The notes beneath the pieces were generated by a model. That model searched no databases. It saw nothing but the letters and a program-made list of their open reading frames with translations, and had not been told where the DNA came from. From the IMG/VR virus record IMGVR_UViG_3300045988_023748: a stretch of DNA of 64,000 nt. The stretch is one strand, 5' to 3'. A program made the translations under genes and the position numbers. The stretch comes from a virus. Below, one piece after another: positions 1 through 58,752 of this stretch; within the stretch, counting starts at the first letter, position 1, and each line of letters begins with the position of its first letter.

Positions 1-24
1 CCAGTAATCATGTAACAGTGATGT

Positions 25-49
25 GTGGGTTGGAGTCCCACTGCTTCCT
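25..49 (+). pseudogene. tRNA 3' fragment (T-arm gtggg/ttggagt/cccac plus acceptor 3' strand) at window edge
   Basis: T-stem/loop/T-stem plus 7-nt acceptor-like tail ending cttcctc. The 5' partner would lie upstream of the window, if it exists. Confidence 0.25.
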
Positions 50-75
50 CAAAACTGTTGGTCGTGTAACAGCGA

Positions 76-103
76 TCCCAGGGTTCGAATCCCTGTCCTT
101 CCT
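76..103 (+). pseudogene. second tandem tRNA 3' fragment (T-arm cagggttcgaatccctg plus tccttcc)
   Basis: Canonical TTCGAAT T-loop with a 5-bp stem. No complementary 5' acceptor within 90 nt upstream. It is a near-duplicate of the fragment at 25-49, and both are preceded by tgtaacag(t/c)g. Confidence 0.3.
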
Positions 104-128
104 CTTATTAATTTATTAATGAAAGATT

Positions 129-1120: not shown

Positions 1121-1169
1121 AAGAAGACATACAGCAGGTGTCATGTTACATATGATTACAATGTCTTCT
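1121..1169 (+). repeat. conserved hairpin element (AAGAAGAC stem with ACAGCAG-containing loop) directly upstream of a tRNA 5' end
   Basis: Inverted repeat aagaagacat...atgtcttct. The same stem and loop motif recur at 6155-6196 and 7489-7528, each time ending 5-7 nt before a tRNA(-like) 5' acceptor. Confidence 0.6.
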
Positions 1170-1175
1170 GTTAAT

Positions 1176-1209
1176 GCCTCGATAGTTTAAGGGATAGAAC
1201 AGTGGCCTT
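1176..1209 (+). tRNA. 5' half of split tRNA-Arg(UCU)-like gene (acceptor, D-arm, 5' anticodon stem)
   Basis: gcctcga ta gttt aagggata gaac a gtggc ctt folds as acceptor plus D-arm plus anticodon-stem 5' strand. The acceptor is complementary (2 G-U) to tcggggt at 1986-1992, and gtggc is the exact complement of gccac at 1960-1964. Confidence 0.4.
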
Positions 1210-1955
1210 CATACGGCTGGTGAGTCCGCAACTCACTGTTATTAATTTCAACAAAACATCCATTTACTTGTTTAATTCGTAATAGATTCGTATCTTTGAG
1301 GTACGAATTTCTAATTTAGACGAATATGACAAGTAAATGGATTGACGAGAAAGCTCAGCTTGAGCATTTAATTTTGGTAGATAAGCTCAGTTATGAGGAA
1401 ATAGGAAGAAGATATGGTTGTTCAGGTACTAATATTAAAAATGTAGCGCGTAGACTTGGCATAGAGCTACCAGTTAAACGTAAAATTAATCCTAAAGAAA
1501 CATTCAATAGGAAGTACAAATACTGTTTAAACTGTGGTGCAGAACTTATTAGTTATAACGGAAGTTATGGCAAGTACTGCGGCCCTAAATGTCAATTTAA
1601 ACATGCTCATATGCTTGCTTACAAGAAGCTTTTGGACGGTGATGAAAGTATAATGAGAGCTAACTACTCTCCTAAGGCTTTCAAGAAAGATATTCTAAAG
1701 GAGCAAGGTGGAGTATGTGCTATATGTGGTATGAAGCCTATCTGGAATGGTAAAGAGCTGGTCTTTATCATTGATCATATAGACGGACATGCATCTAACA
1801 ATCGTAGAGATAATTTACGATGCATATGTCCTAACTGTGATTCACAGCTTGATACTTATAAGTCTAAGAACAAGTGTGGAGAACGTTCCTACTACCGTTA
1901 CCATAAAAATGAAATTAATAACAATAAGGATTAGGTTCGACTCCTAGTTCTTATA
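1210..1955 (+). mobile_element. ~745-nt insertion (candidate intron) in the tRNA anticodon loop carrying an HNH endonuclease gene and an internal TATCTTTG promoter box
   Basis: Lies between the two matching tRNA halves. Contains the HNH ORF 1326..1934, a TAnnTTTG -7 box at 1291-1298, and an extra T-arm-like piece at 1935-1958. Confidence 0.4.
1326..1934 (+). CDS. HNH homing endonuclease with N-terminal HTH
   Basis: HTH-like LSYEEIGRRYGCSGTNIKNVARRLGI, and an HNH/Zn motif CAICG...DHIDGHASNNRRDNLRCICPNCD. Confidence 0.7.
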   Translation: MTSKWIDEKAQLEHLILVDKLSYEEIGRRYGCSGTNIKNVARRLGIELPVKRKINPKETFNRKYKYCLNCGAELISYNGSYGKYCGPKCQFKHAHMLAYKKLLDGDESIMRANYSPKAFKKDILKEQGGVCAICGMKPIWNGKELVFIIDHIDGHASNNRRDNLRCICPNCDSQLDTYKSKNKCGERSYYRYHKNEINNNKD

Positions 1956-1993
1956 CTAAGCCACATATCTGCGTTCGAATCGCAGTCGGGGTA
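1956..1993 (+). tRNA. 3' half of split tRNA-Arg(UCU)-like gene (anticodon stem 3' strand, variable loop, T-arm, acceptor)
   Basis: ctaa gccac atat ctgcg ttcgaat cgcag tcggggt a. The T-arm is perfect, and both the acceptor and the anticodon stem pair with the 5' half at 1176-1209. A mature anticodon loop would read cttctaa (UCU). Confidence 0.4.
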
Positions 1994-2457: not shown

Positions 2458-2646
2458 CAAAGCATATAAAATGAATAATAGGTTATTAGACCGGTAAATA
2501 ACCTTCCGTAAGCAATCGGACGTTGAGAGTTGATAGCCCTACGATAGTGTGGCTACATACGGGCTGTGTAGTGTAATCCGGGAGCACATCATCCTTGCAA
2601 GATGAAGGAGGAGTTCAAATCTCACACGGTCCACTATTAAACTAAA

Positions 2647-3153
2647 TTGAATAATATGAGTGAAGAACTACTTGAAGTATCATGTGAACAGTATGAAAAA
2701 GAATTGGAATCGCTTAACGAGGTAAAAGAAGAGGTTGATAATTTATTATCACACCGTAAAGCTCTCAAGTCTTTAAATTGGATGTTTTATGCTAATACAG
2801 TTGTATTAATTGCTACTGTAACTCACAGTATCTTATGTTATATAAATGAAGCATTCACTACTACTACACTTATATGTGCATTAGTAGTGTTATACTGTAA
2901 TTATTCAATCCATAAGTACTATAAGAGAAACAACGATAGGATAGCCATTATTAATAAAGTTGGGGAAAGCTACAATAGATGTCTTGAACTACTAGAATAC
3001 TTGATAGCGGTATTAAACGAACTTGACGAGACTGATAACCGAGACAAGTTTGTAGAAGACGTAGGAGAAGACTTAGCACTAGCCATTCTAGAATACGAGA
3101 TGTGTAAACAAGTATTTGCAAATGCAGTGCGCGAAGGTTACGAGAATGAGTAA
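2647..3153 (+). CDS. hypothetical membrane/coiled-coil protein (168 aa)
   Basis: ORF track. A central hydrophobic stretch with acidic termini. Confidence 0.45.
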   Translation: MNNMSEELLEVSCEQYEKELESLNEVKEEVDNLLSHRKALKSLNWMFYANTVVLIATVTHSILCYINEAFTTTTLICALVVLYCNYSIHKYYKRNNDRIAIINKVGESYNRCLELLEYLIAVLNELDETDNRDKFVEDVGEDLALAILEYEMCKQVFANAVREGYENE

Positions 3154-3162
3154 CTATATATG

Positions 3163-3236
3163 GTGTTATTAGCTCAGTTGGTTAGAGCACTTGATTGTGG
3201 TTCAAGAGGTCGTCAGTTCGATTCTGACATAACACC
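3163..3236 (+). tRNA. tRNA-His(GUG) with encoded G-1 at 3162
   Basis: Full cloverleaf: acceptor gtgttat/ataacac, D-arm gctc-agttggtta-gagc, anticodon arm cttga-ttGTGgt-tcaag, T-arm gtcag-ttcgatt-ctgac. An extra 5' G is opposite the C73 discriminator. Confidence 0.85.
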
Positions 3237-3319
3237 CTTAGTATCTTATAGACATAATATTAACTTTAAAATTAATTTCCAGTTTGTTTCATTGTTTATT
3301 ATTCACTAAGATACTATAA

Positions 3320-3511
3320 TGCCGAGGATGTGGTCTAGGTGAAAGTCCTAGAGGTGGATGTGGATACGTTGCGTGACACGGTAATGGGAGTAGGTGCGAT
3401 GGCAGTCTGTATGGCGCCTTTAAGATTGTACAGCACTGAAGGATTTGGGTTGTCCAAAGCAACTGGCGTAATAAAGCATAAAATCCAGTGAAGACGTATG
3501 TGTAGGCAGTA
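3320..3511 (+). ncRNA. GC-richer structured non-coding segment of unknown identity between tRNA-His and tRNA-Phe
   Basis: ~190 nt with no convincing + ORF and several local hairpins (ggtctaggtgaaagtcctagag). Preceded by a tataat box. The only track ORF here is on the minus strand and looks spurious. Confidence 0.3.
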
Positions 3512-3586
3512 TGGGACAGTAGCGCAGGTGGTCAGTTCGCGCTGGACTGAAAATCCAGAGATGATGGTTCGACTCCATCCTGTCCC
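3512..3586 (+). tRNA. tRNA-Phe(GAA)
   Basis: Acceptor gggacag/ctgtccc, anticodon arm ctgga-ctGAAaa-tccag, T-arm gatgg-ttcgact-ccatc. The D-arm is slightly atypical. Confidence 0.8.
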
Positions 3587-3619
3587 ACTATTTATTAACA
3601 AGATTAAATTATTAACAAG

Positions 3620-4138
3620 ATGAGTGATGTGTATTATATCATAGGTGGCGTTGCCTATGGTATCTTTATCTTGCAATTCATAATATCATGGGTTGCAGGT
3701 GAACTTGATGTTGATGTGGACTTCGATGGAGATGCCGATTTCGACATTGGTGATGTTGTTTCATTTAAAGGTCTTATTCACTTCCTGATGGGATTTGGAG
3801 GATGGACTTCTATTAAACAACTACTAGGTTATGAGATAACCTGGATTGATTGGTTAATAGGATTCTTTATAGGTCTTGTATTTGTGTTTATGCTGTATCA
3901 TTTATATAAATTCTGTATGAAATTACAGAACTTTCCAACCGACGAACCTCTTGTATACTTAGCAGGAAGACCAGCTAGAATATATGTTCGCTTAGATGAT
4001 AAACGCTATTTAGCTTTTATAAATATAAGTGGAGCATCTAGAGAAGTAGAACTCGTTTCTATTTCAGGTACTTCATATGCGGTTAATCAAGTAGTTACAA
4101 TTCGTGAGGTTATGGATAACACATTGTACATAGATTAA
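3620..4138 (+). CDS. NfeD-like membrane protein (N-terminal TM helices, C-terminal beta-barrel-like domain)
   Basis: Two or three hydrophobic segments, then an acidic linker and a soluble C-terminus. Sits immediately upstream of an SPFH gene, as in nfeD-stomatin and yuaF-floT operons. Confidence 0.5.
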   Translation: MSDVYYIIGGVAYGIFILQFIISWVAGELDVDVDFDGDADFDIGDVVSFKGLIHFLMGFGGWTSIKQLLGYEITWIDWLIGFFIGLVFVFMLYHLYKFCMKLQNFPTDEPLVYLAGRPARIYVRLDDKRYLAFINISGASREVELVSISGTSYAVNQVVTIREVMDNTLYID

Positions 4139-4149
4139 AGACTCATAAG

Positions 4150-6138
4150 ATGGAAATGACAACATTAATTATCGTAGGAGTAATTGTATTAATAGCAATT
4201 ATTACTATCATTGGGATTTTATCTCGTTATCGTAAATGTAAATCTGATGAACTATTAGTAGTTTATGGTAAAACTGGTTCTCACAAAGAGAAGGTAAATG
4301 AACTTGATGCCAAAGGGAACCAAGTTAGTAGGGAAGTAGAAATCAAAACTGCTAGAGTTTATCACGGTGGAGCTGCATTTGTATGGCCTATCATTCAGGG
4401 ATATGAAGTAATGTCAATGCGTCCTATTCAGTTGAATTTAACTCTCAAGGATGCATTATCAGCCCAGAATATTCGTGTTACTGTTCCTACTACAGTCACT
4501 GTAGCAATCAGCCAAGATCCATTAATTATGCAGAATGCTGCTAATAGATTGCTTGGCGTTGATGATACAGATAAAGAGAGTTTAATTTCAGACATTGTAT
4601 ATGGCCAAATGAGGCTTATTGTGGCTTCTATGGAAATTGAGGAACTTAATTCTAATAGAGATAAGTTCTTAACTCAAGCCAGAGACAATATTAATACTGA
4701 ATTAAACAAATTGGGTTTGTATCTGATTAATATCAATATTAGTGACATCAGAGATGCTGCTAATTATATTGAGAATTTGGGTCAGAAAGAAACTACTAAG
4801 GCTAGAGCACAGGCAGAAGCTGCTATTGCTGAAGAAGAGAAGAAAGGAGCAATTCAAATTGCCCTTACTACTAAGGAAAGGGAGACTAAAGTAGCTGAAA
4901 CTACTAGAGACCAGAAAGTAGCCATTGCTATTACTCTCAAGGATCAAGAGACTACTATTGCTGAAACTAATAAGGATAAAGCAATTAGATTAGCCGAAAC
5001 TACTAAGGAGCAGGAAGTTAAACTGTCAGAGCAGCAGAAGGAACAACGTATTGCTATTGCAGATCAACAGAAAGAGCAGGAAGTAGGAGTAGCTAAAGCT
5101 AACGCTGAGAAGCTTTCTAAGGTAGCAGAGCAGGAGTCTATTGCAATTTCTCAACAGACTGAATGGGATGCACAAGCTAAAGCTAATATGGCTAAATCTA
5201 AAGCGGAAGCAGCTGCTAAAGAACAAGAAGCTGAATCAGCTAAGCAAATTCGTATTGCTGCCGCCCAACAGAATCAGGAGGCTGAGACAATTAAAGCTGT
5301 TCAAGAGAAGGAGGCTAGGACTGCTGAATACGAGTCTGAAGCTCGTAAGAAGACAGCTGAAGCTAATAAGCAGGCTGGAGTAGCCGAGCATATGGCTACA
5401 ATTGAAGTGTCTAAGGCTAAAGGAGAAGCTGCAAAGGCTGCTGCTGATGCCGATAAGGTTGCAGGTATTTCTAAAGTGGATGCAGAAACTACTATTGCTA
5501 GAACCGAGCAAGAGAAGATTGCAGAAATTAAAGAAGCTGAAGCCAAAGCTAAAGAAGCTGAATTGAATGCAACAGTAATTGTACCCGCTAATAAGGCTAA
5601 GGAGAAAGCCATTATTGATGCTGAAGCTGTAAAGCAAGAAGCTATTCTTAAGGCAGAAGCTAAAGCTGCTGAAATTCTTAAGGAGGCAGAAGCTAAGGCA
5701 AATGCAACTCAGATGCAACTTGAAGCTGAAGCTGAAGGTACTAAGAGAAAGTTGCTTGCAGAGGCTGAAGGTAAGAGAGCATCTTTGATGGCAGAGGCAG
5801 ACAAGATTACTGCTGTTGAAATGGCTCCTGCAAAGGCAGTAGAGAAGATGATTGAATGTGGTATGACTCCACAAATGATTGTTCAATATAAGACAGTGGA
5901 TCAGCTTAAAGGCATTGCTGAAGCATCCGCAGAGATGTATGAACATATCCATCTTGGACAAGTTACTGTTTATGGTAACGAGAATACTGCTGGTAGTTTC
6001 ATGGCTAAAACAGCTGAGAATCTCAACCCAGCATTTGAACTTCTTAAGAGTATTCCTTTTAAGAAGACATTTAAAGAAATGTTTGTCGAGGATAAGAAGG
6101 ATAATCCAACCGAAGACAACTTTGAAGCTGTGAAGTAA
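4150..6138 (+). CDS. SPFH/band-7 (flotillin-like) protein with long Ala/Glu/Lys-rich coiled coil
   Basis: N-terminal TM helix, an SPFH-like core (VYHGGAAFVWPIIQGYEV...NIRVTVPTTVTVAIS), then ~350 aa of EA/KA heptad-like repeats. Confidence 0.75.
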   Translation: MEMTTLIIVGVIVLIAIITIIGILSRYRKCKSDELLVVYGKTGSHKEKVNELDAKGNQVSREVEIKTARVYHGGAAFVWPIIQGYEVMSMRPIQLNLTLKDALSAQNIRVTVPTTVTVAISQDPLIMQNAANRLLGVDDTDKESLISDIVYGQMRLIVASMEIEELNSNRDKFLTQARDNINTELNKLGLYLININISDIRDAANYIENLGQKETTKARAQAEAAIAEEEKKGAIQIALTTKERETKVAETTRDQKVAIAITLKDQETTIAETNKDKAIRLAETTKEQEVKLSEQQKEQRIAIADQQKEQEVGVAKANAEKLSKVAEQESIAISQQTEWDAQAKANMAKSKAEAAAKEQEAESAKQIRIAAAQQNQEAETIKAVQEKEARTAEYESEARKKTAEANKQAGVAEHMATIEVSKAKGEAAKAAADADKVAGISKVDAETTIARTEQEKIAEIKEAEAKAKEAELNATVIVPANKAKEKAIIDAEAVKQEAILKAEAKAAEILKEAEAKANATQMQLEAEAEGTKRKLLAEAEGKRASLMAEADKITAVEMAPAKAVEKMIECGMTPQMIVQYKTVDQLKGIAEASAEMYEHIHLGQVTVYGNENTAGSFMAKTAENLNPAFELLKSIPFKKTFKEMFVEDKKDNPTEDNFEAVK

Positions 6139-6154
6139 CAATCTTTTACAGCTT

Positions 6155-6196
6155 AAGAAGACGAACAGCATTAATAATGATACAGCAAGGTCTTCT
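6155..6196 (+). repeat. conserved hairpin element, copy 2
   Basis: aagaagac...acagca...gtcttct. Ends 6 nt before the tRNA-like 5' acceptor ggaggta at 6203. Confidence 0.55.
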
Positions 6197-6202
6197 GTAA
6201 TT

Positions 6203-6234
6203 GGAGGTATGGGTGAGTGGTCTATACCAGGGTT
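6203..6234 (+). tRNA. 5' part of a type-II tRNA-like gene (acceptor plus 3-bp D-stem with long D-loop)
   Basis: ggaggta tg ggt gagtggtctat acc a gggtt. The acceptor pairs with tgcctcc at 6805-6811 (one G-U). Its 3' end overlaps the GTG start of ORF 6217. Confidence 0.3.
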
Positions 6235-6240
6235 AAAAAT

Positions 6241-6672
6241 ATGGATACAAAAAGGTTAGGAAATATAGGTGAAGCTCTAACTCAAGCAGAGTTTGTTATG
6301 CGAGGGATTCCTTTGTATTTACCATTTGGAGAGAATGAAAAATCTGACATGATTATTGATTTAAATGGTAAATTAAAAAGAGTTCAATGTAAAACATCAG
6401 AGCAATTTATAGATAATAAAATAGTGTGGAAGTTATCAAGTAGAACAACATCAGGTTGTCATCAATACACTAAAGATGAAGTTGATTTCTTTGCACTATA
6501 TAATTTAGAATCTAAGATACACATCTTAATACCTATAGAAGATTTAAATGGAAGATATTCATTAAAAGTATCAGTTCCTTTTAAAGAATCTAAAAATCAG
6601 AGTGACCCGATTAACTGGGAAGATTATACATTTGATAAGGTATTAAAAATTCCTAAACTAGATTGTAATTAA
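6241..6672 (+). CDS. PD-(D/E)XK-fold endonuclease-like protein (Hjc/restriction-endonuclease-like)
   Basis: Motifs GNIGEA...SDMIIDL...KRVQCKTS. Probable start at ATG 6241 (the track ORF opens at GTG 6217). Lies between the two halves of a split tRNA-like gene. Confidence 0.4.
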   Translation: MDTKRLGNIGEALTQAEFVMRGIPLYLPFGENEKSDMIIDLNGKLKRVQCKTSEQFIDNKIVWKLSSRTTSGCHQYTKDEVDFFALYNLESKIHILIPIEDLNGRYSLKVSVPFKESKNQSDPINWEDYTFDKVLKIPKLDCN

Positions 6673-6758
6673 GGAGAGAGTAACCTGCAAGGAGCAGGGA
6701 TTGCCTGCTAAGCAAATCGTGCATTTCGGTGTATTGGGTTCGAAACCCAACCTCTCCG
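6673..6758 (+). tRNA. tRNA-Ser(GCU)-like (86 nt, type II), possibly degenerate
   Basis: Acceptor 6/7 bp, anticodon arm with loop cTGCTaa, T-arm ttggg-ttcgaaa-cccaa, long variable region. The D region has 4 linker nt and the variable arm pairs poorly. Confidence 0.35.
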
Positions 6759-6812
6759 CTAAGACTCCGAACCTCTAAAAGGGTTCCGCTGGTTCGAATC
6801 CAGCTGCCTCCG
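6759..6812 (+). tRNA. 3' part of split type-II tRNA-like gene (hairpin, T-arm gctgg-ttcgaat-ccagc, acceptor tgcctcc)
   Basis: Perfect T-arm and an acceptor complementary to 6203-6209. No 5' partner within 100 nt. Confidence 0.3.
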
Positions 6813-6862
6813 CGCTGATTAATGAGAGTTGTGAAATTATTATTAACCTAATTACTAAAATT

Positions 6863-7150
6863 ATGGTGAAAGTGTTAAATTCAAGGGAATTGATGAGTAG
6901 AGACTTTAAGTCTATACCCGATGCGGTTATCTTAGCTTTTAATACTTTAATAGTTAAGAATTGGAATGGTCTGGCTTCCGCGTTTAAACAATCAGATGTG
7001 ATCGCCTATATAGCATCTGATAACATAACAGAGGAAGAAGCTATTAAGAATCATTGGCTGGACGTAGAACCTATTTATAGAGCCAATGGATTCGGAGTAA
7101 AGTACGTAGGAAGAGGAAGTGATGCAGAATTCACTTTCTGGAAGGCATAA
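6863..7150 (+). CDS. hypothetical protein (95 aa)
   Basis: ORF track. Confidence 0.4.
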   Translation: MVKVLNSRELMSRDFKSIPDAVILAFNTLIVKNWNGLASAFKQSDVIAYIASDNITEEEAIKNHWLDVEPIYRANGFGVKYVGRGSDAEFTFWKA

Positions 7151-7154
7151 CGGA

Positions 7155-7228
7155 TGTCGGGTTCGTCTAATTGGATAGGACGCATGTCTCTCACACATGT
7201 AATACGGGTTCAAATCCCGTTGGGAATA
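7155..7228 (+). pseudogene. tRNA-like fragment (D-stem, anticodon arm catgt-ctCTCac-acatg, T-arm acggg-ttcaaat-cccgt) without a pairing acceptor stem
   Basis: Three arms fold, but the 3' tail tgggaat has no complementary 5' strand. The tail TTGGGAATAC recurs at 7298-7307. Confidence 0.3.
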
Positions 7229-7338
7229 CTATTAATGATTTATGCTTGTCTCATTGGCATACCAAGTTATTTGAAGAGATGGACACCTATCAATAACATT
7301 GGGAATACCTCAGCTGGCGGGAAGAGACAATACACTTA

Positions 7339-7377
7339 GGAACGGAAGTTGAATCCTGTGTCCGGGAACGGAAGTTA
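7339..7377 (+). repeat. direct repeat ggaacggaagtt x2 upstream of tRNA-Asp-like gene
   Basis: The 12-mer occurs at 7339 and 7366, 27 nt apart. Confidence 0.4.
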
Positions 7378-7399
7378 AGTGTAGGTAAGCTAGCTCTAT

Positions 7400-7471
7400 G
7401 GTGCATTGGTCTAAAGGTTAGGATACTAGACTGTCTATCTTGGGGTACGGGTTCGATTCCCGTATGCACCG
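7400..7471 (+). tRNA. tRNA-Asp(GUC)-like
   Basis: Acceptor ggtgcat/atgcacc perfect; T-arm acggg-ttcgatt-cccgt; anticodon arm ctaga-ctGTCta-tcttg with one mismatch; 72 nt. Confidence 0.55.
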
Positions 7472-7488
7472 CAATCTTTGATTTGCAT

Positions 7489-7528
7489 AAGAAGACTACA
7501 GCAGTATAGTTTTATATCAAAGTCTTCT
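7489..7528 (+). repeat. conserved hairpin element, copy 3
   Basis: aagaagac tacagcag...a gtcttct. Ends 7 nt before tRNA-Thr. Confidence 0.55.
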
Positions 7529-7534
7529 GAAATT

Positions 7535-7607
7535 GCCTCCTTAGCTCAACTGGCAGAGCAATCGTCTTGTAAGCGATAGGTTATCGGTTCGATTCCGGTA
7601 GGAGGCT
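7535..7607 (+). tRNA. tRNA-Thr(UGU)
   Basis: gcctcct...aggaggc acceptor, D-arm gctc-aactggca-gagc, anticodon loop ctTGTaa, T-arm atcgg-ttcgatt-ccggt. Confidence 0.85.
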
Positions 7608-7689
7608 CGATGATAGTCTTAGGCTATTGTTAGATTATTTTTAACACACAGAGATGCTTATGAAGTTAACATGTTAATGCGAAATGTAA

Positions 7690-8070
7690 ATGAGCAGTTT
7701 TAAAGAGAAATTGAGTAAGAGTGGTCAGAGTGTACTTGATGCAAGAGCACAGAATCTGTATGAATTGACTAAAATTGAAGAAGACAGATTCGTTCAGGAC
7801 TGCAAGTTGAAAGTACTCCGTATTCAGGGAGAAATCAATAAGCATAATGATCTTGCCGTTAAATCAAGAGACTCTTTGAATCCGGGAGAGAATCTGAATC
7901 CGGCTGAATGGGTAAAAACAAGACACGAATTGGCACGTAAACTGCGTGTTGCAAAGATTGAACTTGCTCTAGCCATGCAGGTAGACGAAGAAGAATTTCC
8001 TGCTGATGCAACAGAATCCATTAATTTGGATGATGTAAAAGGAGACATTACTAACCCATTAGATAATTAA
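7690..8070 (+). CDS. hypothetical protein (126 aa)
   Basis: ORF track. Stop is 2 nt before the vWA gene. Confidence 0.45.
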   Translation: MSSFKEKLSKSGQSVLDARAQNLYELTKIEEDRFVQDCKLKVLRIQGEINKHNDLAVKSRDSLNPGENLNPAEWVKTRHELARKLRVAKIELALAMQVDEEEFPADATESINLDDVKGDITNPLDN

Positions 8071-8072
8071 TT

Positions 8073-8993
8073 ATGGGAAGTGGTGTTTACAGTAGTATTG
8101 CTTATAGCACTTTATCTGATGATAGAGGATATGCTAAAGCATCGCGTGACCAGCTCTTTAAGAACATTTCAGTAAATGCTAGTAATACAGCAGCGTCATT
8201 TAATGTAAATGCACGTAGCTTTAATACTCAAGTTAAAGCTGAAATGGTCAATGTTGGAGTTCGTGAGTGTCGTGACTCTCAAGAACATCCATACTCTACT
8301 CCGATAATCATTGCACTAGATGTTACTGGTTCAATGATGAATACTCCTTATGAAATGATTAAGAACCATTTACCTAAGATTATGGATTCTGTCATGCAAA
8401 TGGGAGTACGTGATCCTCAATTGTTGTTTATGGCAGTTGGAGACCACGAATACGATAGATATCCTATTCAGGTTGGACAGTTTGAATCTGATACTGAGAA
8501 GATTCTAAATTCATTAGAGTCCTTAGTAATAGAAGGTGGAGGTGGTGGTAATGCAGGTGAGAGCTATTTATTAGCTCACATAGTTGCAGGATATCACACT
8601 GAAACCGATTCTTGGTTCAAAAGACACACTAAAGGATTCTTGTTTACTATTGGTGATGAACCTAATCTACAAGGAATCCCAGGTAACAGTTTGACTGAAA
8701 TTCTAGGGTATCAAAAAGGTGCTGGTTCTATTAGTGCTAATGAAGCAATTCTGAAAGCACAAGAGCAGTACCATGTATTCCACATTCACATTACTAATGC
8801 CAGTTATGGCACAAGGGTGGCTGAATCTTGGAAGAATCTACTTGGACAGAATGTACTAATGTGCAAATCTGATGAAGTGGATAAAGTAATTGCTAAAGCA
8901 ATTAAAGACAATTACGAGGAGCCTGTGTATGCAGAAACTCCTAGTGATGCTTCTAGTAGTACAACTACCGAAGACAAACAAAATTTCTATTAA
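8073..8993 (+). CDS. von Willebrand factor A (vWA) domain protein
   Basis: MIDAS-like IIIALDVTGSM (DxTGS), with later T and D positions. C-terminal Ser/Thr-rich tail. Confidence 0.6.
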   Translation: MGSGVYSSIAYSTLSDDRGYAKASRDQLFKNISVNASNTAASFNVNARSFNTQVKAEMVNVGVRECRDSQEHPYSTPIIIALDVTGSMMNTPYEMIKNHLPKIMDSVMQMGVRDPQLLFMAVGDHEYDRYPIQVGQFESDTEKILNSLESLVIEGGGGGNAGESYLLAHIVAGYHTETDSWFKRHTKGFLFTIGDEPNLQGIPGNSLTEILGYQKGAGSISANEAILKAQEQYHVFHIHITNASYGTRVAESWKNLLGQNVLMCKSDEVDKVIAKAIKDNYEEPVYAETPSDASSSTTTEDKQNFY

Positions 8994-8997
8994 AATC

Positions 8998-10044: not shown

Positions 10045-10059
10045 TATTCCCTTAGTAAT

Positions 10060-10130
10060 TGGACTATGGTGTAACGGCAGCACAACAGGTTTTGGTTCTG
10101 TTTGTCCAGGTTCGAATCCTGGTGGTCCAA
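10060..10130 (+). tRNA. tRNA-Gln(UUG)
   Basis: U1-A72 acceptor tggacta/tggtcca, anticodon arm acagg-ttTTGgt-tctgt, T-arm ccagg-ttcgaat-cctgg. Confidence 0.8.
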
Positions 10131-10212
10131 CTACTAATTATGATTTTAATATGTTAATGAGTTTGTTATTAATAAGACCTTACTATTAATTGTGTTAGTC
10201 TTAAAGAATTAA

Positions 10213-10286
10213 GGGCTCATAGCTCAATTGGTTAGAGCAAAACACTCATAATGTTGAGGTTGTCAGTTCAAGTCTGGCTGGGCCCA
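10213..10286 (+). tRNA. tRNA with CAU anticodon (elongator Met or Ile2-type)
   Basis: gggctca/tgggccc acceptor, gctc-aattggtta-gagc, loop ctCATaa, T-arm gtcag-ttcaagt-ctggc. Confidence 0.8.
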
Positions 10287-10310
10287 CACAATTGATGATA
10301 AGAATCTTTT

Positions 10311-12016: not shown

Positions 12017-12046
12017 CACTGACTTTGGGTTAAAACTAGAAAGGGA

Positions 12047-12289: not shown

Positions 12290-12290
12290 T

Positions 12291-12371: not shown

Positions 12372-12402
12372 CTAGAGTAGTAACTTTAAAACTTATTTAA
12401 TT

Positions 12403-13820: not shown

Positions 13821-13831
13821 CTTATGAATCC

Positions 13832-13939: not shown

Positions 13940-13941
13940 AT

Positions 13942-14016: not shown

Positions 14017-14041
14017 CATTACTAATTAATACTTAAAGATT

Positions 14042-54544: not shown

Positions 54545-55933
54545 ATGCGTATAAATCAATCTTCTAAGTTTAATGTTAATTATGCAGCTAAGATAATTCA
54601 AGTAAAAGATTTCACACCACACCCTAATCCTAAATGTGAAAGGATGAAATGTGTTCATGTAGATGGTTATATGATATCCGTATCTAAGGATACTCAACCA
54701 GGGCAATATATATATTTCCCTGTAGGATGTCAGATTGCTAATAAATATTTGGCAGCTAATAATCTATTTAGACACAATGAATTCAATGCTAACAAGGAAG
54801 CTTCTCCAGGTTTCTTTGAGGATAATGGTAGGGTAAAGCCTATTAAGTTGCAGGGAGTTCCTTCAGAGGGATTTATAATGCCTATAGATTCGTTATATAA
54901 ATGGCTGGATTTTATAGGAGAATCTCATGAAGTAGTTACCAATTTGAAAGAAGGAACAGAATTTGATAGTTTGGATAAACATATACTTTGTAAGAAGTAT
55001 GTAGTGAATCCTCCTAAAACTTCTGGAAATTCTTCTAGGCAAGCTAAGCAGCCTAAAGGCATTAGTAAATTAGTAGAGAATCAGTTTAGATTTCACTATG
55101 ATACTGTTCTCATTAAGAAATGTCCTTGGGTTATTAAACCTAATGATATTATTAGTATTACTTCCAAAGTACATGGAACATCAGGTATTTCTGCCGATGT
55201 ACTATGTAAAAGACCATTAAGATGGAAAGACAAGGTGGCTAGCTGGTTCACAGATGTTCCAGACACTAAGTATGACTACTTATGGTCTTCTAGAAAGGTA
55301 GTTAAAAATCAGTATTACAATAAAGAAGCAAGTGCAGGATATTATGGTTGTGATATTTGGGGTGAAGCTCATTCTAAATTGTCTCCGTATCTTACTAAAG
55401 GACTTACTCTTTATTATGAAATCATAGGATGGCTGCCTACAGGTCAGGCTATTCAAGCAATGAATGGTAAAGCTTATGACTATGGTTATGAGAGACCTAT
55501 ATGGGATCCTACTACTCAGACTACACCGTATGAATATGGTAAGAATTTCGGTATCCAAATTTACCGTATTACTTATACAAATCCAGATGGTGTGGTATTT
55601 GAATTCTCTGCTAGACAAGTACAACAGTGGTGTAAAGATAAAGGACTTACTCCGGTAGAACAGTTATATTACGGATATGCTAAGGATTTATATCCAGAGC
55701 TTGATGAGACTGAGCATTGGAATGAGAATTTTATCCAAAAGCTAGCTAATGATAAAAGGTTCTACATGGAAGAACTTTCACCTACATGTCACAATGATGT
55801 ACCACATGAAGGTATAGTGATTCGCATTGAGAATGGTTTATCTGAAGCTTACAAACTTAAATGCTTTAGATTCTTAGGAGAGGAGTCTAAGTCATTAGAT
55901 AAAGGAGAAATTGATATAGAAGCAGACCAGTAA
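54545..55933 (+). CDS. RNA ligase-like nucleotidyltransferase (Rnl2-type motif I)
   Basis: ITSKVHGTSG resembles KxHG motif I of Rnl2 ligases. It is the second ligase-superfamily gene, besides the DNA ligase. Confidence 0.5.
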   Translation: MRINQSSKFNVNYAAKIIQVKDFTPHPNPKCERMKCVHVDGYMISVSKDTQPGQYIYFPVGCQIANKYLAANNLFRHNEFNANKEASPGFFEDNGRVKPIKLQGVPSEGFIMPIDSLYKWLDFIGESHEVVTNLKEGTEFDSLDKHILCKKYVVNPPKTSGNSSRQAKQPKGISKLVENQFRFHYDTVLIKKCPWVIKPNDIISITSKVHGTSGISADVLCKRPLRWKDKVASWFTDVPDTKYDYLWSSRKVVKNQYYNKEASAGYYGCDIWGEAHSKLSPYLTKGLTLYYEIIGWLPTGQAIQAMNGKAYDYGYERPIWDPTTQTTPYEYGKNFGIQIYRITYTNPDGVVFEFSARQVQQWCKDKGLTPVEQLYYGYAKDLYPELDETEHWNENFIQKLANDKRFYMEELSPTCHNDVPHEGIVIRIENGLSEAYKLKCFRFLGEESKSLDKGEIDIEADQ

Positions 55934-56617: not shown

Positions 56618-56669
56618 GAAGGGTTAATACAGTCATTTGATAAAATGGAAGAATAATATTTTTATTAAA

Positions 56670-57431
56670 ATGGAAGATTTTAAATTCTACGAAGTTGGTG
56701 GTAAGATACGCGATGAGCTATTAGGTCTTACTAATAAGGATGTTGATTATGTAGCTGTGCCTACAGAGGCAGTCTATAGTAAAATTCACCCATGTGAAGC
56801 TCAGCTTAGTCCAGCTCAACTAATGTTTAAAGCATTAAAAAGCTACTTGGAAGAACAGAAGTTCGAAATCTTCTTAGTAACTCCAGAATGTTACACTATA
56901 CGTGCTAAATTCCCAGAAGGATATAAGTATCAAGGTGTAGCAGACTTTGTGATGGCAAGAAAGGAAGTAGGGTACGTTCCAGGTACTAGGATTCCTATTG
57001 TAGAGCCAGGAAATCTGTATGATGATTTATCACGCAGAGATTTCACTATTAATGCTTTGGCTAAAGACCCTGATACTGGAGAAATAATTGATTACTTTGG
57101 TGGTTTGGAAGACATTAAGGAGAAACTTCTTAGGACTCCATTACCTCCTATTGTAACTTTCGATGATGACCCTTTAAGGATTCTCAGAGGTATAAGGTTC
57201 TCTATTACCAAGAGACTACGGGTATCTGAAGATATGTGGCAGGCTATGAAGGCTTATGACTATTTCGACAAAATGCCAGTAGTATCTGAGGAGAGAATAA
57301 GGGAAGAGCTGACAAAGTGCTTTAAGTGTAACTCATCTTTAACTCTAGGGTGGTTATCTGAACTTACTGATTTAAGAGATTACATTTTTAAGAACACTAA
57401 TTTATGGCTTAAGCCAACTAACGAGAAATGA
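56670..57431 (+). CDS. tRNA nucleotidyltransferase (CCA-adding enzyme head domain)
   Basis: YEVGGKIRDELLGLTNKDVDYVAV (GGxVRD, DxD) and RRDFTINALA motifs. Confidence 0.65.
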   Translation: MEDFKFYEVGGKIRDELLGLTNKDVDYVAVPTEAVYSKIHPCEAQLSPAQLMFKALKSYLEEQKFEIFLVTPECYTIRAKFPEGYKYQGVADFVMARKEVGYVPGTRIPIVEPGNLYDDLSRRDFTINALAKDPDTGEIIDYFGGLEDIKEKLLRTPLPPIVTFDDDPLRILRGIRFSITKRLRVSEDMWQAMKAYDYFDKMPVVSEERIREELTKCFKCNSSLTLGWLSELTDLRDYIFKNTNLWLKPTNEK

Positions 57432-57826
57432 GTAGTTATTTATCATTTTATTTAGTGCCTAAAGCACATCCAGAGGAGAGGTTACTACTTCAATCATTCA
57501 GTAGGTCTAATGAGGTGTATCAAAGATTCTTTGATAATCTTAGTATAGCATATGCTGGTAATGAAGAGAAGTATACTAAACTCACTGTTAGTGATGTTGG
57601 ATCAGTAATTCGAGACCTTGATGATGACATTGCTAAAGCAGAAGCGAGGCGAGTAGAGTACGAGAAATTCTGTCATGGCAATTCGGAACTTATAGAGGAG
57701 ATGATATCCACTAAGGAATATATACGGGATTTACAAAGTACTAGAGATTACATATCGTTTATACGAGACATTTTAGCTGACTTAGATTATAGCGGATTTA
57801 GTGATGTTTTATGTAATATTGATTAA
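57428..57826 (+). CDS. hypothetical protein
   Basis: ORF track. Lies between the CCA enzyme and Pnk genes. Confidence 0.4.
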   Translation: MSSYLSFYLVPKAHPEERLLLQSFSRSNEVYQRFFDNLSIAYAGNEEKYTKLTVSDVGSVIRDLDDDIAKAEARRVEYEKFCHGNSELIEEMISTKEYIRDLQSTRDYISFIRDILADLDYSGFSDVLCNID

Positions 57827-58752
57827 TGGAAACTAGAGTATTAGTAATCTGTAGAGGAATTCAGGGAAGTGGCAAAACTAGTTTTGCTAAGCAGTGGTGT
57901 CATGAAGACCCGGAGCACAGAGTAAGATTTAACAATGACGATATTCGTAACATGCTGGGAGACTATTGGGTTCCTAGTAGAGAGGATGTTGTCACTGCAA
58001 CTTATAACACTGTACTAGCTTATAGTATGGAGAAAGGTTATAACATCATAGTTGATAATATGAACCTCAACCCTAAAACTTGTGCAGAGTTAGAGAAGAT
58101 GGTTAAGGACTTTAACGAGAATTATACCTACGATTGGAAGTATGAGATTGAATACAAAGATTTCTGGACTCCCGTAGATGAGTGTGTTCGTCGTGATGCT
58201 AAAAGAGAACATCCTATAGGTGAGAAAGTTATTAGACAGACTTGGAGACGCTATAGAGACTTCATAATTCATGAGGAAATTATGGCTGCTAAGGCTAAAG
58301 CATTAGTTCAAGACACTAACCTACCAGCAGCAATTATAGTAGATATGGATGCAACTGTGTGTCTGAATACTAGTGGTCGTCCGTTCTATGGAGAAGGTGC
58401 AGCTGAAGGTATGCTTACTGATGAGCCTATTACTCCTATTCTTGAACTTATTAGAAACTTCTGTGATAATTATCCTGCCAAGTTAATAATACTAACTGGT
58501 AGGGAAGATACTCCTGAAGTTCGTAAAGCTACAGAACAGTGGTTGGAGAATAACTTCCTACATCCAGATATGATTCTTATGCGTCCCGCTAATAGCTTCG
58601 TAGCTGGTCCTATATGTAAGAAGAAACTGTATGAGGACAATATCAAAGGCAAATTCTACATACCTTTCGTGCTTGAAGACAATTGTAAGTGTGTAGAGAT
58701 GTGGAGAAATGAAGGCTTAATTTGTTTACAACCAAACGAAGGTAAATTCTAA
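57826..58752 (+). CDS. pnk: polynucleotide 5'-kinase/3'-phosphatase (T4 Pnk-like)
   Basis: N-terminal P-loop ICRGIQGSGKTSFAK and a C-terminal HAD DxDxT motif IIVDMDATVC. Confidence 0.7.
   Translation: METRVLVICRGIQGSGKTSFAKQWCHEDPEHRVRFNNDDIRNMLGDYWVPSREDVVTATYNTVLAYSMEKGYNIIVDNMNLNPKTCAELEKMVKDFNENYTYDWKYEIEYKDFWTPVDECVRRDAKREHPIGEKVIRQTWRRYRDFIIHEEIMAAKAKALVQDTNLPAAIIVDMDATVCLNTSGRPFYGEGAAEGMLTDEPITPILELIRNFCDNYPAKLIILTGREDTPEVRKATEQWLENNFLHPDMILMRPANSFVAGPICKKKLYEDNIKGKFYIPFVLEDNCKCVEMWRNEGLICLQPNEGKF

What the first reader, a model, noticed from the sequence alone, without database searches (positions are those of the whole stretch)
1121..1993. tRNA-Arg(UCU)-like gene split in its anticodon loop by a ~745-nt HNH-endonuclease-bearing insertion (candidate tRNA intron)
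The 5' piece (1176-1209) folds as acceptor plus D-arm plus anticodon-stem 5' strand. The 3' piece (1956-1993) supplies the complementary anticodon-stem strand, with gccac the exact complement of gtggc. It also supplies a 4-nt variable loop, a perfect TTCGAAT T-arm and an acceptor strand pairing 7/7 (2 G-U) with the 5' piece. Two independent stems matching across 780 nt is unlikely by chance. The intervening DNA carries an HTH-HNH endonuclease gene with its own TATCTTTG promoter box. Joining would give anticodon loop cttctaa (UCU), a useful isoacceptor for an AT-rich phage. The expected group-I omega-G is not obvious at the 3' junction, so this may instead be a disrupted gene or an unusual intron.
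Basis: partly seen in the sequence, partly recalled or inferred. Interest (0 to 1): 0.8.

Follow-up and report, generated by a model that had tools for sequence, protein, structure and literature searches.

The report
Mobile mini-intron splitting phage tRNA-Arg
A crAss-like gut phage has its only tRNA-Arg(UCU) gene cut in the anticodon loop by a mobile 746-base insert that carries an HNH homing endonuclease inside a small conserved RNA scaffold that is not a group I or II intron, so it may be a new kind of tRNA intron, although splicing has not been shown.

Summary
Window 1176-1209/10 and 1956/7-1993 are the two halves of a tRNA-Arg(UCU) gene, separated by 746 nt. Related phages carry the uninterrupted gene at the same position, so the match is not chance.

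The insert holds an HNH endonuclease gene (1326-1934) with its own Bacteroidetes-type promoter. This gene sits in the loop of a long-range stem. That stem belongs to a conserved RNA scaffold with three parts:
- a 5' pseudoknotted hairpin;
- stem B;
- a 3' hairpin that copies a tRNA acceptor/T-arm minihelix (7+5 bp, T-loop, N73, C74) and ends exactly at the 3' junction.

I found the same architecture, with compensatory changes, in about 15 diverged sequence types. Three lineages have ORF-less forms of 81-108 nt.

It is not a group I intron, a group II intron, a BHB intron or any Rfam ribozyme.

My best reading (about 0.5) is an RNA-level intron. Homing would be driven by the HNH enzyme, excision by tRNA-end-processing-type cleavage, and sealing by the phage's own Pnkp and RNA ligase. 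The main rival (about 0.3) is a selfish endonuclease cassette that has simply killed the gene; clear cases of that exist in this same window. Splicing is untested.

The parts
1176..1209 (+). 5' exon of tRNA-Arg(UCU). It comprises the acceptor 5' strand (1176-1182), the D arm (1185-1200), A26 (1201), the anticodon-stem 5' strand GTGGC (1202-1206) and C32 U33 U34 (1207-1209). C1210 may instead be exon position 35.
   Evidence: Homology to intronless alleles.
1210..1955 (+). Intervening element of 746 nt. The alternative boundaries are 1211-1956, because the same C flanks both ends.
   Evidence: ARAGORN -i. Presence/absence polymorphism.
1212..1237 (+). 5' module. S1a is TACGG (1212-1216), which pairs with the loop CCGCA (1226-1230) of hairpin A. 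Hairpin A is GGTGAGT (1219-1225) paired with ACTCACT (1231-1237). Together they form a pseudoknot or two alternative hairpins.
   Evidence: Folding. Covariation ACGG/CCGT <-> ACAG/CTGT, with hairpin A 100% paired in 15 sequence types.
1237..1248 (+). Stem B, 5' strand TGTTATTAATTT. It pairs with 1912-1923 across the ORF.
   Evidence: Cognate duplex energy -8.8 kcal/mol against -0.5 for non-cognate pairs.
1257..1343 (+). Expression module of the endonuclease gene. It contains a 15-bp stem (1257-1271 with 1329-1343) that encloses the palindrome ATTCGTA/TACGAAT (1286-1292 and 1302-1308), the -7 box TATCTTTG (1291-1298) and the ATG (1326). In read-through pre-tRNA transcripts the stem would cover codons 2-6. 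That last point is an inference.
   Evidence: Sequence. Hairpin picked up by chance miRNA models. The motif recurs in homologues.
1326..1934 (+). HNH homing endonuclease gene, 202 aa. It has an N-terminal HTH-like region, Cys-rich zinc motifs and a C-terminal HNH domain.
   Evidence: 77 of 80 homologue loci lie next to or inside a tRNA(UCU) gene.
1912..1923 (+). Stem B, 3' strand AAATTAATAACA. It lies inside the last codons of the ORF.
1924..1956 (+). Hairpin C, a mimic of the tRNA acceptor/T-arm minihelix. It consists of ATAAGGA-TTAGG, the T-loop TTCGACT (1936-1942) and CCTAG-TTCTTAT, followed by A1955 (N73-like) and C1956 (C74-like). It overlaps the stop codon TAG (1932-1934).
   Evidence: (tRNA model aligns the acceptor and T arm, 16.6 bits). 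The 3' strand is always 12 nt and bulges occur only at the 7/5 junction. The same N73-C74-U/A signature is seen in the phage's own tRNAs.
1956..1993 (+). 3' exon. It comprises (C35) U36 A37 A38 (1956-1959), the anticodon-stem 3' strand GCCAC (1960-1964), the variable loop ATAT, the T arm (1969-1985), the acceptor 3' strand (1986-1992) and the discriminator A1993.
54545..55933 (+). Phage RNA ligase. It is an inferred candidate for sealing the exons. It has not been shown to act on this RNA.
   Evidence: phrog_968, E=4.5e-45.
56637..57431 (+). Phage tRNA nucleotidyltransferase (CCA-adding enzyme). Listed as context only.
57826..58752 (+). Polynucleotide kinase-phosphatase of the T4 Pnkp / bacterial Pnkp1 type. 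It is an inferred candidate for healing the ends.
   Evidence: 4xrp E=1e-31; T4 Pnk 1ltq E=4e-14.

Best explanation
The only tRNA-Arg(UCU) gene of this crAss-like, Bacteroidetes-infecting phage is interrupted between anticodon positions 34/35 (or 35/36) by a mobile element with two layers.

Layer 1 is a small structured RNA of about 80-110 nt. It has a 5' pseudoknotted hairpin that starts 2 nt after the junction. It has a long-range stem B. It has a 3' hairpin that is a strict copy of a tRNA acceptor/T-arm minihelix followed by N73 and C74, and this hairpin ends exactly at the 3' junction.

Layer 2 is an HNH homing endonuclease gene with its own promoter, looped out of stem B.

At the DNA level, the HNH enzyme cuts intronless tRNA(UCU) genes in the anticodon-loop region and the element is copied in by repair (homing). 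This step is inferred, though strongly supported.

At the RNA level, I propose that the element is removed from the pre-tRNA by proteins rather than by group I chemistry. The minihelix would direct a tRNA 3'-end-processing endonuclease (RNase Z type) to cut at the 3' junction. The 5' junction next to the pseudoknot would be cut by RNase P, another nuclease or a small self-cleaving fold. The two exons, held together by the tRNA body, would then be sealed by the phage's own RNA ligase, with Pnkp if the ends need healing.

What is shown: the anatomy, the polymorphism, the mobility, the covariation and the presence of the repair genes. What is inferred: splicing itself and every enzymatic step.

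My confidence by level is as follows:
- about 0.9 that this is an HNH-driven mobile insert in tRNA-Arg(UCU) that is not group I;
- about 0.55 that it is removed at the RNA level;
- about 0.25 for the specific RNase Z plus ligase route.
For: Intronless alleles sit at the same locus in related phages, and the differences are confined to about 20 nt around the insertion, as expected for co-conversion.

The same insertion site and architecture occur in about 15 sequence types with different exons. In every one the acceptor stem pairs 7/7 and the anticodon stem 5/5. All of them give tRNA-Arg(tct) when joined in silico.

The same intron type is found in different tRNA-Arg backbones (L023 versus L183, L021 versus L036, L018 versus L034), which indicates mobility.

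The covariation is strong. Hairpin A is 100% paired, stem B 99%, hairpin C 98%, and S1 has a G-C <-> A-U switch. On an uncurated MAFFT alignment 80.9% of cells pair against 62% in shuffles (0/500 as high). The covariation score is 0.50 against 0.19 in shuffles and 0.12-0.15 for slid partners.

The 5' strand of stem B lies upstream of the endonuclease promoter. Its covariation therefore reports selection on the full pre-tRNA transcript, not on the endonuclease mRNA.

ORF-less forms with intact exons exist in three lineages and 11 contigs:
- L010, L011, L159, L167, L169, L178;
- L133, L162, L163, L176;
- L158.

These ORF-less genes diverge less than the flanking coding DNA: 0.7% against 2.6%, and 0% against 0.6-1.2%.

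No other tRNA-Arg(UCU) is found in the window or in the 14-kb tRNA cluster of mini-intron genomes. AGA makes up 54% of Arg codons.

Hairpin C keeps a 12-nt 3' strand followed by N and C before UAA in all types. The phage's own tRNAs end N73-C74-U/A.

The window encodes an RNA ligase, Pnkp and a CCA-adding enzyme.
Against: There is no RNA evidence of a spliced product.

No nuclease for the 5' junction has been identified. The pseudoknot's stem S1 is short, and in the window lineage it would use the whole 5-nt hairpin loop, which is sterically awkward.

Matched halves are also expected shortly after homing into an intact gene, so they do not prove function.

The same window has two tRNA-Ser genes that were clearly destroyed by endonuclease-plus-tRNA cassettes, and these show the same 'tRNA 3' end abutting the anticodon-loop remnant' design. 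In L084/85 and L016 a full tRNA-Arg sits where hairpin C sits here. Hairpin C could therefore be a relic of such a tRNA.

Some alleles are decayed: L033, and the relics in L045 and L037.

Pnkp and RNA ligase are common in tRNA-rich phages for other reasons.

The sequences compared for the divergence test are not independent.
Confidence: 0.5

Rival explanations
1. This is a selfish endonuclease cassette that has inactivated the gene. The HNH enzyme cuts the anticodon-loop DNA of tRNA(UCU) genes and the cassette is copied in. The two halves are a recent pseudogene and nothing is spliced. The conserved hairpins either serve expression and processing of the endonuclease mRNA or are remnants of a replacement tRNA that once travelled with the cassette.
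For: Two tRNA-Ser genes in this window are split in just this way, each by a cassette that brings a replacement tRNA. L016, L024 and L084/85 show cassettes with a full tRNA, and L033, L037, L045 and the L062 group show relic halves. 69 of 80 homologues are free-standing next to an intact tRNA(UCU). The free-standing copy in L027 is also followed by a T-loop hairpin. Homing alone would explain the precise junctions and the matched halves.
Against: Here there is no replacement tRNA and no second tRNA-Arg(UCU). The 5' module and the 5' strand of stem B lie upstream of the endonuclease promoter, yet they covary with their partners. ORF-less forms have nothing to express, yet they keep all helices and intact exons and diverge less than the flanking genes. 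Hairpin C keeps an exact 7+5 geometry through many compensatory changes, which a relic would not.
Confidence: 0.3
2. This is a new small self-splicing or self-cleaving RNA. The roughly 80-110-nt scaffold would itself catalyse cleavage at one or both junctions and perhaps ligation, with the T-loop hairpin acting as a tertiary-contact module.
For: The fold is compact, conserved and pseudoknotted, and it sits right at the 5' junction. ORF-less forms persist. From my own knowledge, small HDV-like 'theta' ribozymes are known next to tRNAs in gut phages. Cleavage products with 2',3'-cyclic phosphate and 5'-OH ends would suit the phage Pnkp and ligase.
Against: No Rfam ribozyme model matches, even at E<=10 on the ORF-less forms. 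The order of helices does not fit the HDV-like fold, since there is no room for P3 or P4. Few unpaired nucleotides are conserved beyond CUUC-W-U-A and N-C-UAA. No natural ribozyme of this size is known to splice.
Confidence: 0.1
3. This is a highly diverged group I intron whose core is hidden in or around the ORF.
For: Group I introns with homing endonucleases are the only tRNA introns known in bacteria, and they sit in the anticodon loop. A U precedes the 5' junction if the exon ends at U34. A related phage (L016) has what looks like an ordinary group I intron in tRNA(CAU), and Rfam detects it only weakly, so the model's sensitivity is limited.
Against: There is no Intron_gpI signal at E<=10. 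The ORF-less forms are 81-108 nt, well below the smallest group I introns I know of (about 200 nt; my own knowledge). The last intron base is A, T or C, never G. I found no internal guide sequence. The non-coding part outside the scaffold is a promoter and hairpin.
Confidence: 0.03
4. This is a split tRNA. The two halves would be made as separate RNAs, the 3' half from the internal promoter, and would work after trans-joining or without being joined.
For: An internal promoter lies upstream of the ORF and the 3' half. The halves pair perfectly.
Against: A break in the anticodon loop inactivates tRNAs; this is established from the anticodon nucleases. There are no leader complementarities of the Nanoarchaeum type. 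The covariation of stem B argues for a single continuous transcript.
Confidence: 0.03

Closest known systems
Bacterial group I introns in tRNA anticodon loops: cyanobacterial tRNA-Leu(UAA) and tRNA-fMet (the latter with the PD-(D/E)XK endonuclease I-Ssp6803I), Agrobacterium tRNA-Arg(CCU), Azoarcus tRNA-Ile(CAU), and Patescibacteria tRNA-Asn/Asp (PMC13011429)
   Same: The insertion is in the anticodon loop of a bacterial-type tRNA gene. An optional homing endonuclease ORF is looped out of a peripheral stem. Presence/absence polymorphism and ORF-less derivatives both occur.
   Different: There is no group I core. The core here is 81-108 nt, against roughly 200 nt or more. There is no omega-G and no internal guide sequence. 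The 3' end is a tRNA minihelix mimic. The host is a phage.
Free-standing homing endonucleases in phage tRNA clusters (T4 SegB) and endonucleases that target intron insertion sites ('collaborative homing', cyanophage psbA). This comparison rests on my own knowledge.
   Same: The HNH family here is tied to tRNA(UCU) genes (77 of 80 loci). It is mostly free-standing next to its presumed target and occasionally sits inside an intron-like element.
   Different: The endonuclease here sits inside the tRNA gene, within a structured RNA scaffold. Its specificity for the anticodon-loop DNA is inferred and has not been measured.
Archaeal and eukaryal protein-spliced tRNA introns (BHB motif, EndA, RtcB/Trl1) and split tRNAs
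   Same: The proposed route is protein-dependent endonucleolytic excision followed by ligation, with the exons held together by the tRNA body.
   Different: The position is 34/35 or 35/36, not 37/38. No bulge-helix-bulge can be drawn. No EndA-like protein was found in the window. The recognition element would be a tRNA minihelix mimic.
T4 Pnkp + Rnl1 (and bacterial Pnkp1-Rnl-Hen1) repair of anticodon-loop breaks
   Same: The phage encodes homologues (Pnkp best matches 4xrp and 1ltq; an RNA ligase). The required reaction, sealing a nick in an anticodon loop, is exactly what these enzymes are known to do.
   Different: Their known role is to counter host anticodon nucleases. Any role in removing an intervening sequence is my hypothesis.
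tRNA-like minihelix substrates of RNase P, RNase Z and the CCA-adding enzyme (model minihelices, mascRNA, viral tRNA-like structures)
   Same: There is a 12-bp coaxial 7+5 helix, a T-loop UUCGAYU and an N73-like base, with the presumed cut site immediately 3' of it.
   Different: The element is embedded inside an intron within another tRNA. Cleavage has not been demonstrated.

Membership tests
Group I intron | Conserved catalytic core (P3-P9 with the P7 G-binding site), detectable by a covariance model and of sufficient size | tested here: not met
   No RF00028 hit at E<=10 on the window insert or on the ORF-less forms. ORF-less cores are 81-108 nt. As a control, a probable group I intron in L016 gives a weak hit.
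Group I intron | Omega-G as the last intron nucleotide | tested here: not met
   The last base is A, T or C (junction after U34) or C (junction after C35) in all types.
Group I intron | P1 helix: the 5' exon ends in U, paired with G of an internal guide sequence | tested here: inconclusive
   U34 can be the last exon base, but I found no guide sequence complementary to the variable exon ends by inspection.
Group I intron | GTP-dependent self-splicing | not testable with these tools
   This needs in-vitro transcription.
Group II intron | 5' GUGYG, domain V/VI, reverse transcriptase/maturase ORF | tested here: not met
   The intron begins C(A/U)UAC. No Rfam group II hit was found. The ORF is an HNH protein only.
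BHB (archaeal-type) tRNA intron | Bulge-helix-bulge at the splice sites, canonical position 37/38, EndA endonuclease | tested here: not met
   The junctions lie at 34/35 or 35/36 in single-stranded linkers of a four-way junction. No tRNA_int_endo hit was found among 71 window ORFs scanned; only 64 kb of an estimated ~150 kb genome was seen (the size is taken from a close relative's 151.5-kb contig).
Known small self-cleaving ribozymes (hammerhead, HDV-like, twister, twister-sister, pistol, hatchet, hairpin) | Match to the family covariance model | tested here: not met
   No such hit at E<=10 or E<=5 on L010, L158 or L163. Theta ribozymes may not be in Rfam.
HNH homing endonuclease | HNH (beta-beta-alpha-metal) motif | tested here: met
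   HNH_3 E=3e-5, 0.8 bit below Pfam's cut-off, and Endonuclease_7 E=9e-4. D150-H151, N163, N170 and the Cys pairs are invariant in 27 homologues. Weak hits to solved HNH domains.
HNH homing endonuclease | Presence/absence polymorphism at a fixed site, with co-conversion of the flanks | tested here: met
   The same intron is found in different backbones.
HNH homing endonuclease | Cleavage of the intronless allele | not testable with these tools
   This needs an enzyme assay. The association with tRNA(UCU) in 77 of 80 loci is indirect support.
tRNA-Arg(UCU) | Cloverleaf with UCU anticodon after joining | tested here: met
   ARAGORN calls the spliced sequences and the -i run as tRNA-Arg(tct). The Rfam tRNA model spans the split gene of L158 at 48.5 bits.
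tRNA acceptor/T-arm minihelix (RNase P / RNase Z substrate class) | 7+5 bp coaxial helix, 7-nt T-loop UUCRANY, unpaired N73 | tested here: met
   98% of positions paired, 12-nt 3' strand invariant in length, bulges only at the 7/5 junction. Partial tRNA-model alignment.
tRNA acceptor/T-arm minihelix (RNase P / RNase Z substrate class) | Actual cleavage by RNase Z or RNase P at the predicted bond | not testable with these tools
   This needs biochemistry.

The most novel reading that the evidence does not exclude
This would be a previously unrecognised class of tRNA intron in bacteriophages. It is a structured RNA of about 80-110 nt whose ends imitate tRNA processing sites: a pseudoknot at the 5' junction and an acceptor/T-arm minihelix plus N73-C74 at the 3' junction. 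Ordinary tRNA end-processing enzymes (or a new small ribozyme) would excise it, and a phage RNA-repair ligase would rejoin the anticodon loop. That would amount to a protein-dependent tRNA splicing pathway in the bacterial world, with an HNH homing endonuclease as a passenger.
Probability: 0.35. Interest if true: 0.9.

Novelty: new variant of a known kind. Interest (0 to 1): 0.72.

Why it matters
To my knowledge, every tRNA intron described so far in bacteria and their viruses is a self-splicing group I intron. Protein-dependent tRNA splicing is treated as a feature of archaea and eukaryotes.

A small non-group-I intron in a phage tRNA, removed through tRNA mimicry and RNA-repair enzymes, would break that rule. 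It would give phage Pnkp and RNA ligase a second role. It would also explain part of the 'unknown forms of gene fragmentation' noted for large crAss-like phages (PMC7886860).

There is a practical side too. Default tRNA finders miss these genes, so the tRNA repertoires and codon-supply estimates of abundant gut phages are incomplete.

If the gene is instead dead, the locus still documents a large family of HNH endonucleases (1709 homologues at E<=1e-5) specialised on one tRNA anticodon loop. It also shows a continuum from free-standing gene, through gene-killing cassette, to intron-like element.

Tried and rejected
- Group I, group II and known ribozymes. I scanned with Rfam at gathering threshold and at E<=10, on the window insert and on three ORF-less forms. 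Nothing matched.
- BHB motif. I tried to draw one by hand and it does not fit the junction geometry.
- HDV-like/theta fold. The helix order S1a-S2a-S1b-S2b leaves no room for P3 or P4.
- RNase P-type acceptor helix between the intron's 5' and 3' ends. Only 2-3 bp can form, they are not conserved and they conflict with hairpin C.
- Internal guide sequence pairing with the exon end. None is conserved.
- An allele with the intron-type exons but no intron (precise loss). Searching AGTGGCCTTCTAAGCCAC in viral contigs found only unrelated tRNA-Arg genes.
- ORF-less introns in 185,579 bacterial and archaeal genomes. All 8 pattern hits are ordinary tRNAs with a chance leader match.
- The same pattern in viral contigs and metagenomes. 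Most hits were chance, but L133, L158, L159, L162, L163, L167, L169, L176 and L178 were real.
- EndA, RNase Z or other candidate splicing nucleases among 71 window ORFs. None was found, and the small ORFs in the RNA-repair block have no informative Pfam match.
- PDB sequence search with the HNH protein and the RNA ligase. It gave no useful relatives.
- Literature searches. Four searches found no description of such an intron, and neither did Yutin et al. 2021.
- The resemblance of the intron start (cttcATACGGCTGGTGAGT) to the leader and 5' end of the neighbouring tRNA-Ala (ctacATACGGGCTGTGTAGT). I judged it a coincidence because other lineages do not share it.
Full report
**1. The observation**

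- The 5' piece reads GCCTCGA-TA-GTTT-AAGGGATA-GAAC-A-GTGGC-CTT(C).
- The 3' piece reads (C)TAA-GCCAC-ATAT-CTGCG-TTCGAAT-CGCAG-TCGGGGT-A.

Default ARAGORN and the Rfam tRNA model do not call the gene. ARAGORN with introns allowed reports tRNA-Arg(tct) with a 746-nt intron. The in-silico joined sequence is called tRNA-Arg(tct).

The decisive control is comparative. A scan of viral contigs with the 3' half found five related phage contigs (L002, L003, L004, L007, L009) with an uninterrupted tRNA-Arg(TCT) between the same flanking genes. It matches the joined halves at 61 of 72 positions. All differences lie in the anticodon arm and variable loop, which is the pattern expected for co-conversion around an insertion.

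The junction is ambiguous by one base, because a C flanks both ends (CTTC...CTAA).

**2. The genome and the ORF**

The window comes from a crAss-like gut phage.
- Its family A DNA polymerase is 92% identical to that of an unannotated human-faecal phage record.
- It is about 45% identical to those of Crassvirales phages.

ORF 1326-1934 is a weak but genuine HNH protein. It is 58% identical to the annotated HNH endonuclease of crAss-like phage cr116_1, where the gene stands free between tRNA-Leu and tRNA-Arg(TCT). It has 1709 homologues at E<=1e-5.

In 80 homologue loci from viral contigs, 69 have an intact tRNA with anticodon TCT within 600 nt and 8 have the split arrangement. This is therefore an endonuclease family specialised on tRNA(UCU) genes.

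TATCTTTG (1291-1298) matches the Bacteroidetes -7 promoter box TAnnTTTG (my own knowledge). It sits in a palindrome that recurs upstream of the homologues. A 15-bp stem (1257-1271 with 1329-1343) would cover the start of the ORF only in transcripts that begin upstream, that is, in the pre-tRNA. This point is an inference.

**3. It is not a group I intron**

- Rfam finds no group I, group II or ribozyme match in the insert, even at E<=10.
- Contigs L010 and L011 carry the same element with the ORF deleted, which leaves about 108 nt.
- A pattern scan found further ORF-less forms: the window type in L159, L167, L169 and L178; a different one of 93 nt in L133, L162, L163 and L176; and a third of 81 nt in L158.
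- These sizes are far below any group I core that I know of.
- The last base of the element is never G.
- Rfam finds nothing in these small forms either.
- As a control, a related phage (L016) has a 638-nt ORF-less insertion in tRNA(CAT) that ends in G and gives a weak Intron_gpI hit. Ordinary group I tRNA introns therefore do occur in this phage group, and they look different.
- No instance was found in 185,579 bacterial and archaeal genomes.

**4. Anatomy of the element**

The ORF-less pre-tRNAs of L010 and L133 fold with the tRNA cloverleaf intact, and three hairpins emerge from the anticodon stem. For L010 the z-score is -5.4.

Comparison of 15 sequence types from at least 8 clearly diverged groups gives the following:
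- **5' junction.** After CUUC-W-U come the bases ACRG, which pair with CYGU in the loop of hairpin A. There is a clean G-C <-> A-U switch (7 types against 8).
- **Hairpin A.** It has 4-9 bp of unrelated sequence and is 100% paired.
- **Stem B.** It has 6-12 bp, is 99% paired, and encloses the ORF or a short loop.
- **Hairpin C.** It has 12 bp and is 98% paired, with a T-loop UUCGAYU. Its 3' strand is always exactly 12 nt, and single bulges occur only in the 5' strand at the 7/5 junction. It is followed by one base (A, U or C), then C, then UAA and the anticodon stem.

The cognate strands of stem B and hairpin A pair far better than non-cognate ones (-8.8 against -0.5 and -4.9 against -0.3 kcal/mol).

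On an uncurated MAFFT alignment the structure scores as follows:
- 80.9% of cells are paired, against 62% in shuffles (0/500 as high).
- 41-47% are paired when the partners are slid.
- The covariation score is 0.50, against 0.19 in shuffles.

Hairpin C is thus a strict copy of a tRNA acceptor/T-arm minihelix with N73 and C74. The same N73-C74-U/A ending is found in 13 of the 14 tRNAs of the window, none of which encodes CCA.

**5. Is the gene alive?**

Arguments for function:
- Every intron-type allele except L033 has 7/7 acceptor pairs and 5/5 anticodon-stem pairs.
- There is no other tRNA-Arg(UCU) in the window, nor in the 14-kb tRNA cluster of a mini-intron genome.
- AGA is 54% of Arg codons.
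- The 5' module and the 5' strand of stem B lie upstream of the endonuclease promoter. Their covariation with downstream partners therefore reflects selection on the whole pre-tRNA transcript.
- ORF-less forms keep every helix. They also diverge less than the flanking coding DNA: 18 differences in 2595 compared sites against 174 in 6750 upstream for the window type, and 0 in 948 against 0.6-1.2% for the L133 type.

Arguments against:
- Homing into intact genes produces matched halves by itself.
- The same window contains two destroyed tRNA-Ser genes:
  - The resident tRNA-Ser(GCT), intact in L159, is split at 6203-6812 by a PD-(D/E)XK endonuclease gene plus a complete second tRNA-Ser(GCT). The 3' end of that second tRNA abuts the resident remnant at G|CTAA, again at anticodon position 34/35.
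  - The resident tRNA-Ser(TGA) at the window start is treated the same way.
- For tRNA-Arg, L016 and L084/85 have a complete replacement tRNA-Arg where hairpin C sits here. L037, L045 and the L062 group show orphan halves.
- Hairpin C may therefore descend from a cassette tRNA.

**6. Proposed mechanism**

These cassettes suggest how the element could work. When a full tRNA abuts the 3' remnant, normal 3' processing of that tRNA cuts exactly at the junction and releases a 3' half that begins at position 35.

The minihelix keeps just what RNase Z-type enzymes need, and the geometry that sets the cut site is conserved. That makes sense only if the cut matters.

I therefore propose the following steps:
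1. Excision by tRNA-end-processing-type cleavage at the 3' junction.
2. A second cut next to the 5' pseudoknot, by RNase P, another nuclease or self-cleavage.
3. Sealing of the anticodon loop by the phage RNA ligase (54545-55933), helped by Pnkp (57826-58752) if the ends carry a cyclic phosphate and a 5'-OH.

Both genes, plus a CCA-adding enzyme, lie in one block of the window. This chemistry is inferred, and none of it has been shown.

The HNH gene provides DNA-level mobility. Identical intron types occur in different tRNA-Arg backbones: L023 versus L183, L021 versus L036, and L018 versus L034.

**7. Comparison with known systems**

The element works like the homing-endonuclease-bearing group I introns of bacterial tRNA genes. 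However, it fails every testable group I criterion, and it also fails the BHB and group II criteria.

Four literature searches and the crAss-like phage survey (PMC7886860) did not turn up a description of it. That survey inferred introns from endonuclease domains and mentions 'unknown forms of gene fragmentation'.

**8. Verdict**

The interpretation as a candidate intron is reasonable but unproven, and the element is not group I.

My confidence by claim is:
- about 0.9 that it is an HNH-driven mobile insert;
- about 0.55 that it is removed at the RNA level;
- about 0.3 that the gene is simply dead.

A junction-read search in RNA data, or a one-day in-vitro assay on the 81-108-nt forms, would settle the question.

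Noticed in passing
window 6203-6812: The resident tRNA-Ser(GCT), intact in relatives L159 and L007, is split. The order is:
- a 5' piece (6203-6230);
- a PD-(D/E)XK endonuclease ORF of the I-Ssp6803I family, PF11645 (about 6242-6672);
- a complete second tRNA-Ser(GCT) (6673-6758);
- the resident 3' part starting at anticodon position 35 (CTAA..., 6759-6812).

Seven bases of the resident anticodon arm are lost, so that copy is dead. ARAGORN calls neither copy.
   Followed up: yes
window 1-110: The design is the same at the window edge. The 3' end of one tRNA (ending ...gcttcctc at position 50) abuts AAAACTGTT..., which is the 3' part of the resident tRNA-Ser(TGA) from its anticodon loop onward (compare L159 1637-1727).
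   Followed up: partly
window 44444-48044: The anaerobic ribonucleotide reductase gene nrdD is in two pieces (44444-45493 and 46320-47123). A NUMOD4/HNH_3 endonuclease ORF (45635-46210) lies between them and a GIY-YIG ORF (47262-48044) lies after. There is no Rfam group I hit at gathering threshold. I did not resolve whether this is an intron or an endonuclease-split gene.
   Followed up: no
window 54545-59128: This is an RNA-repair block: an RNA ligase (phrog_968), a CCA-adding enzyme, Pnkp (closest solved structure Capnocytophaga Pnkp1, 4xrp) and a WDGH-domain protein. Several small ORFs of unknown function lie among them.
   Followed up: partly
window tRNAs (2561-22246): Thirteen of the 14 tRNA genes have C at position 74 followed by T or A, and none encodes CCA. 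The tRNA at 7161-7228 is seen only by Rfam; by synteny with relatives it is probably tRNA-Glu(TTC).
   Followed up: partly
L016 427-1131: A related phage has a tRNA(CAT) gene with a 638-nt ORF-less insertion after T36. The insertion ends in G and gives a weak Intron_gpI hit, so it is probably an ordinary group I intron.
   Followed up: partly
L184 and L185 (around 560-1450): This is a divergent variant of the element. Both junction bases are T instead of C (CTTT...TTAA), so the joined anticodon would be UUU. Hairpin C has no T-loop. The paired C->T change at both ends looks like a 1-nt target duplication that is renewed at each homing event.
   Followed up: partly
L027-L030, L037, L041-L047, L062 group: Many free-standing HNH homologues sit beside a tRNA with anticodon loop CTTCTAA and a long variable arm (type II-like). 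ARAGORN calls it Arg, but its identity is unclear. Several of these phages have in-frame TAG codons in the HNH ORF, and related genomes carry a tRNA(CTA) suppressor.
   Followed up: no
window 1932-1934: The HNH ORF ends in TAG inside hairpin C. In a lineage with an amber suppressor tRNA (L007, L009, L011, L167), read-through would extend the protein across the 3' exon to the TAA near position 2010.
   Followed up: no
window 29335-30084 and 41704-42483: Two more NUMOD1-type endonuclease ORFs are present, so the early region of this genome is dense with homing endonuclease genes.
   Followed up: no
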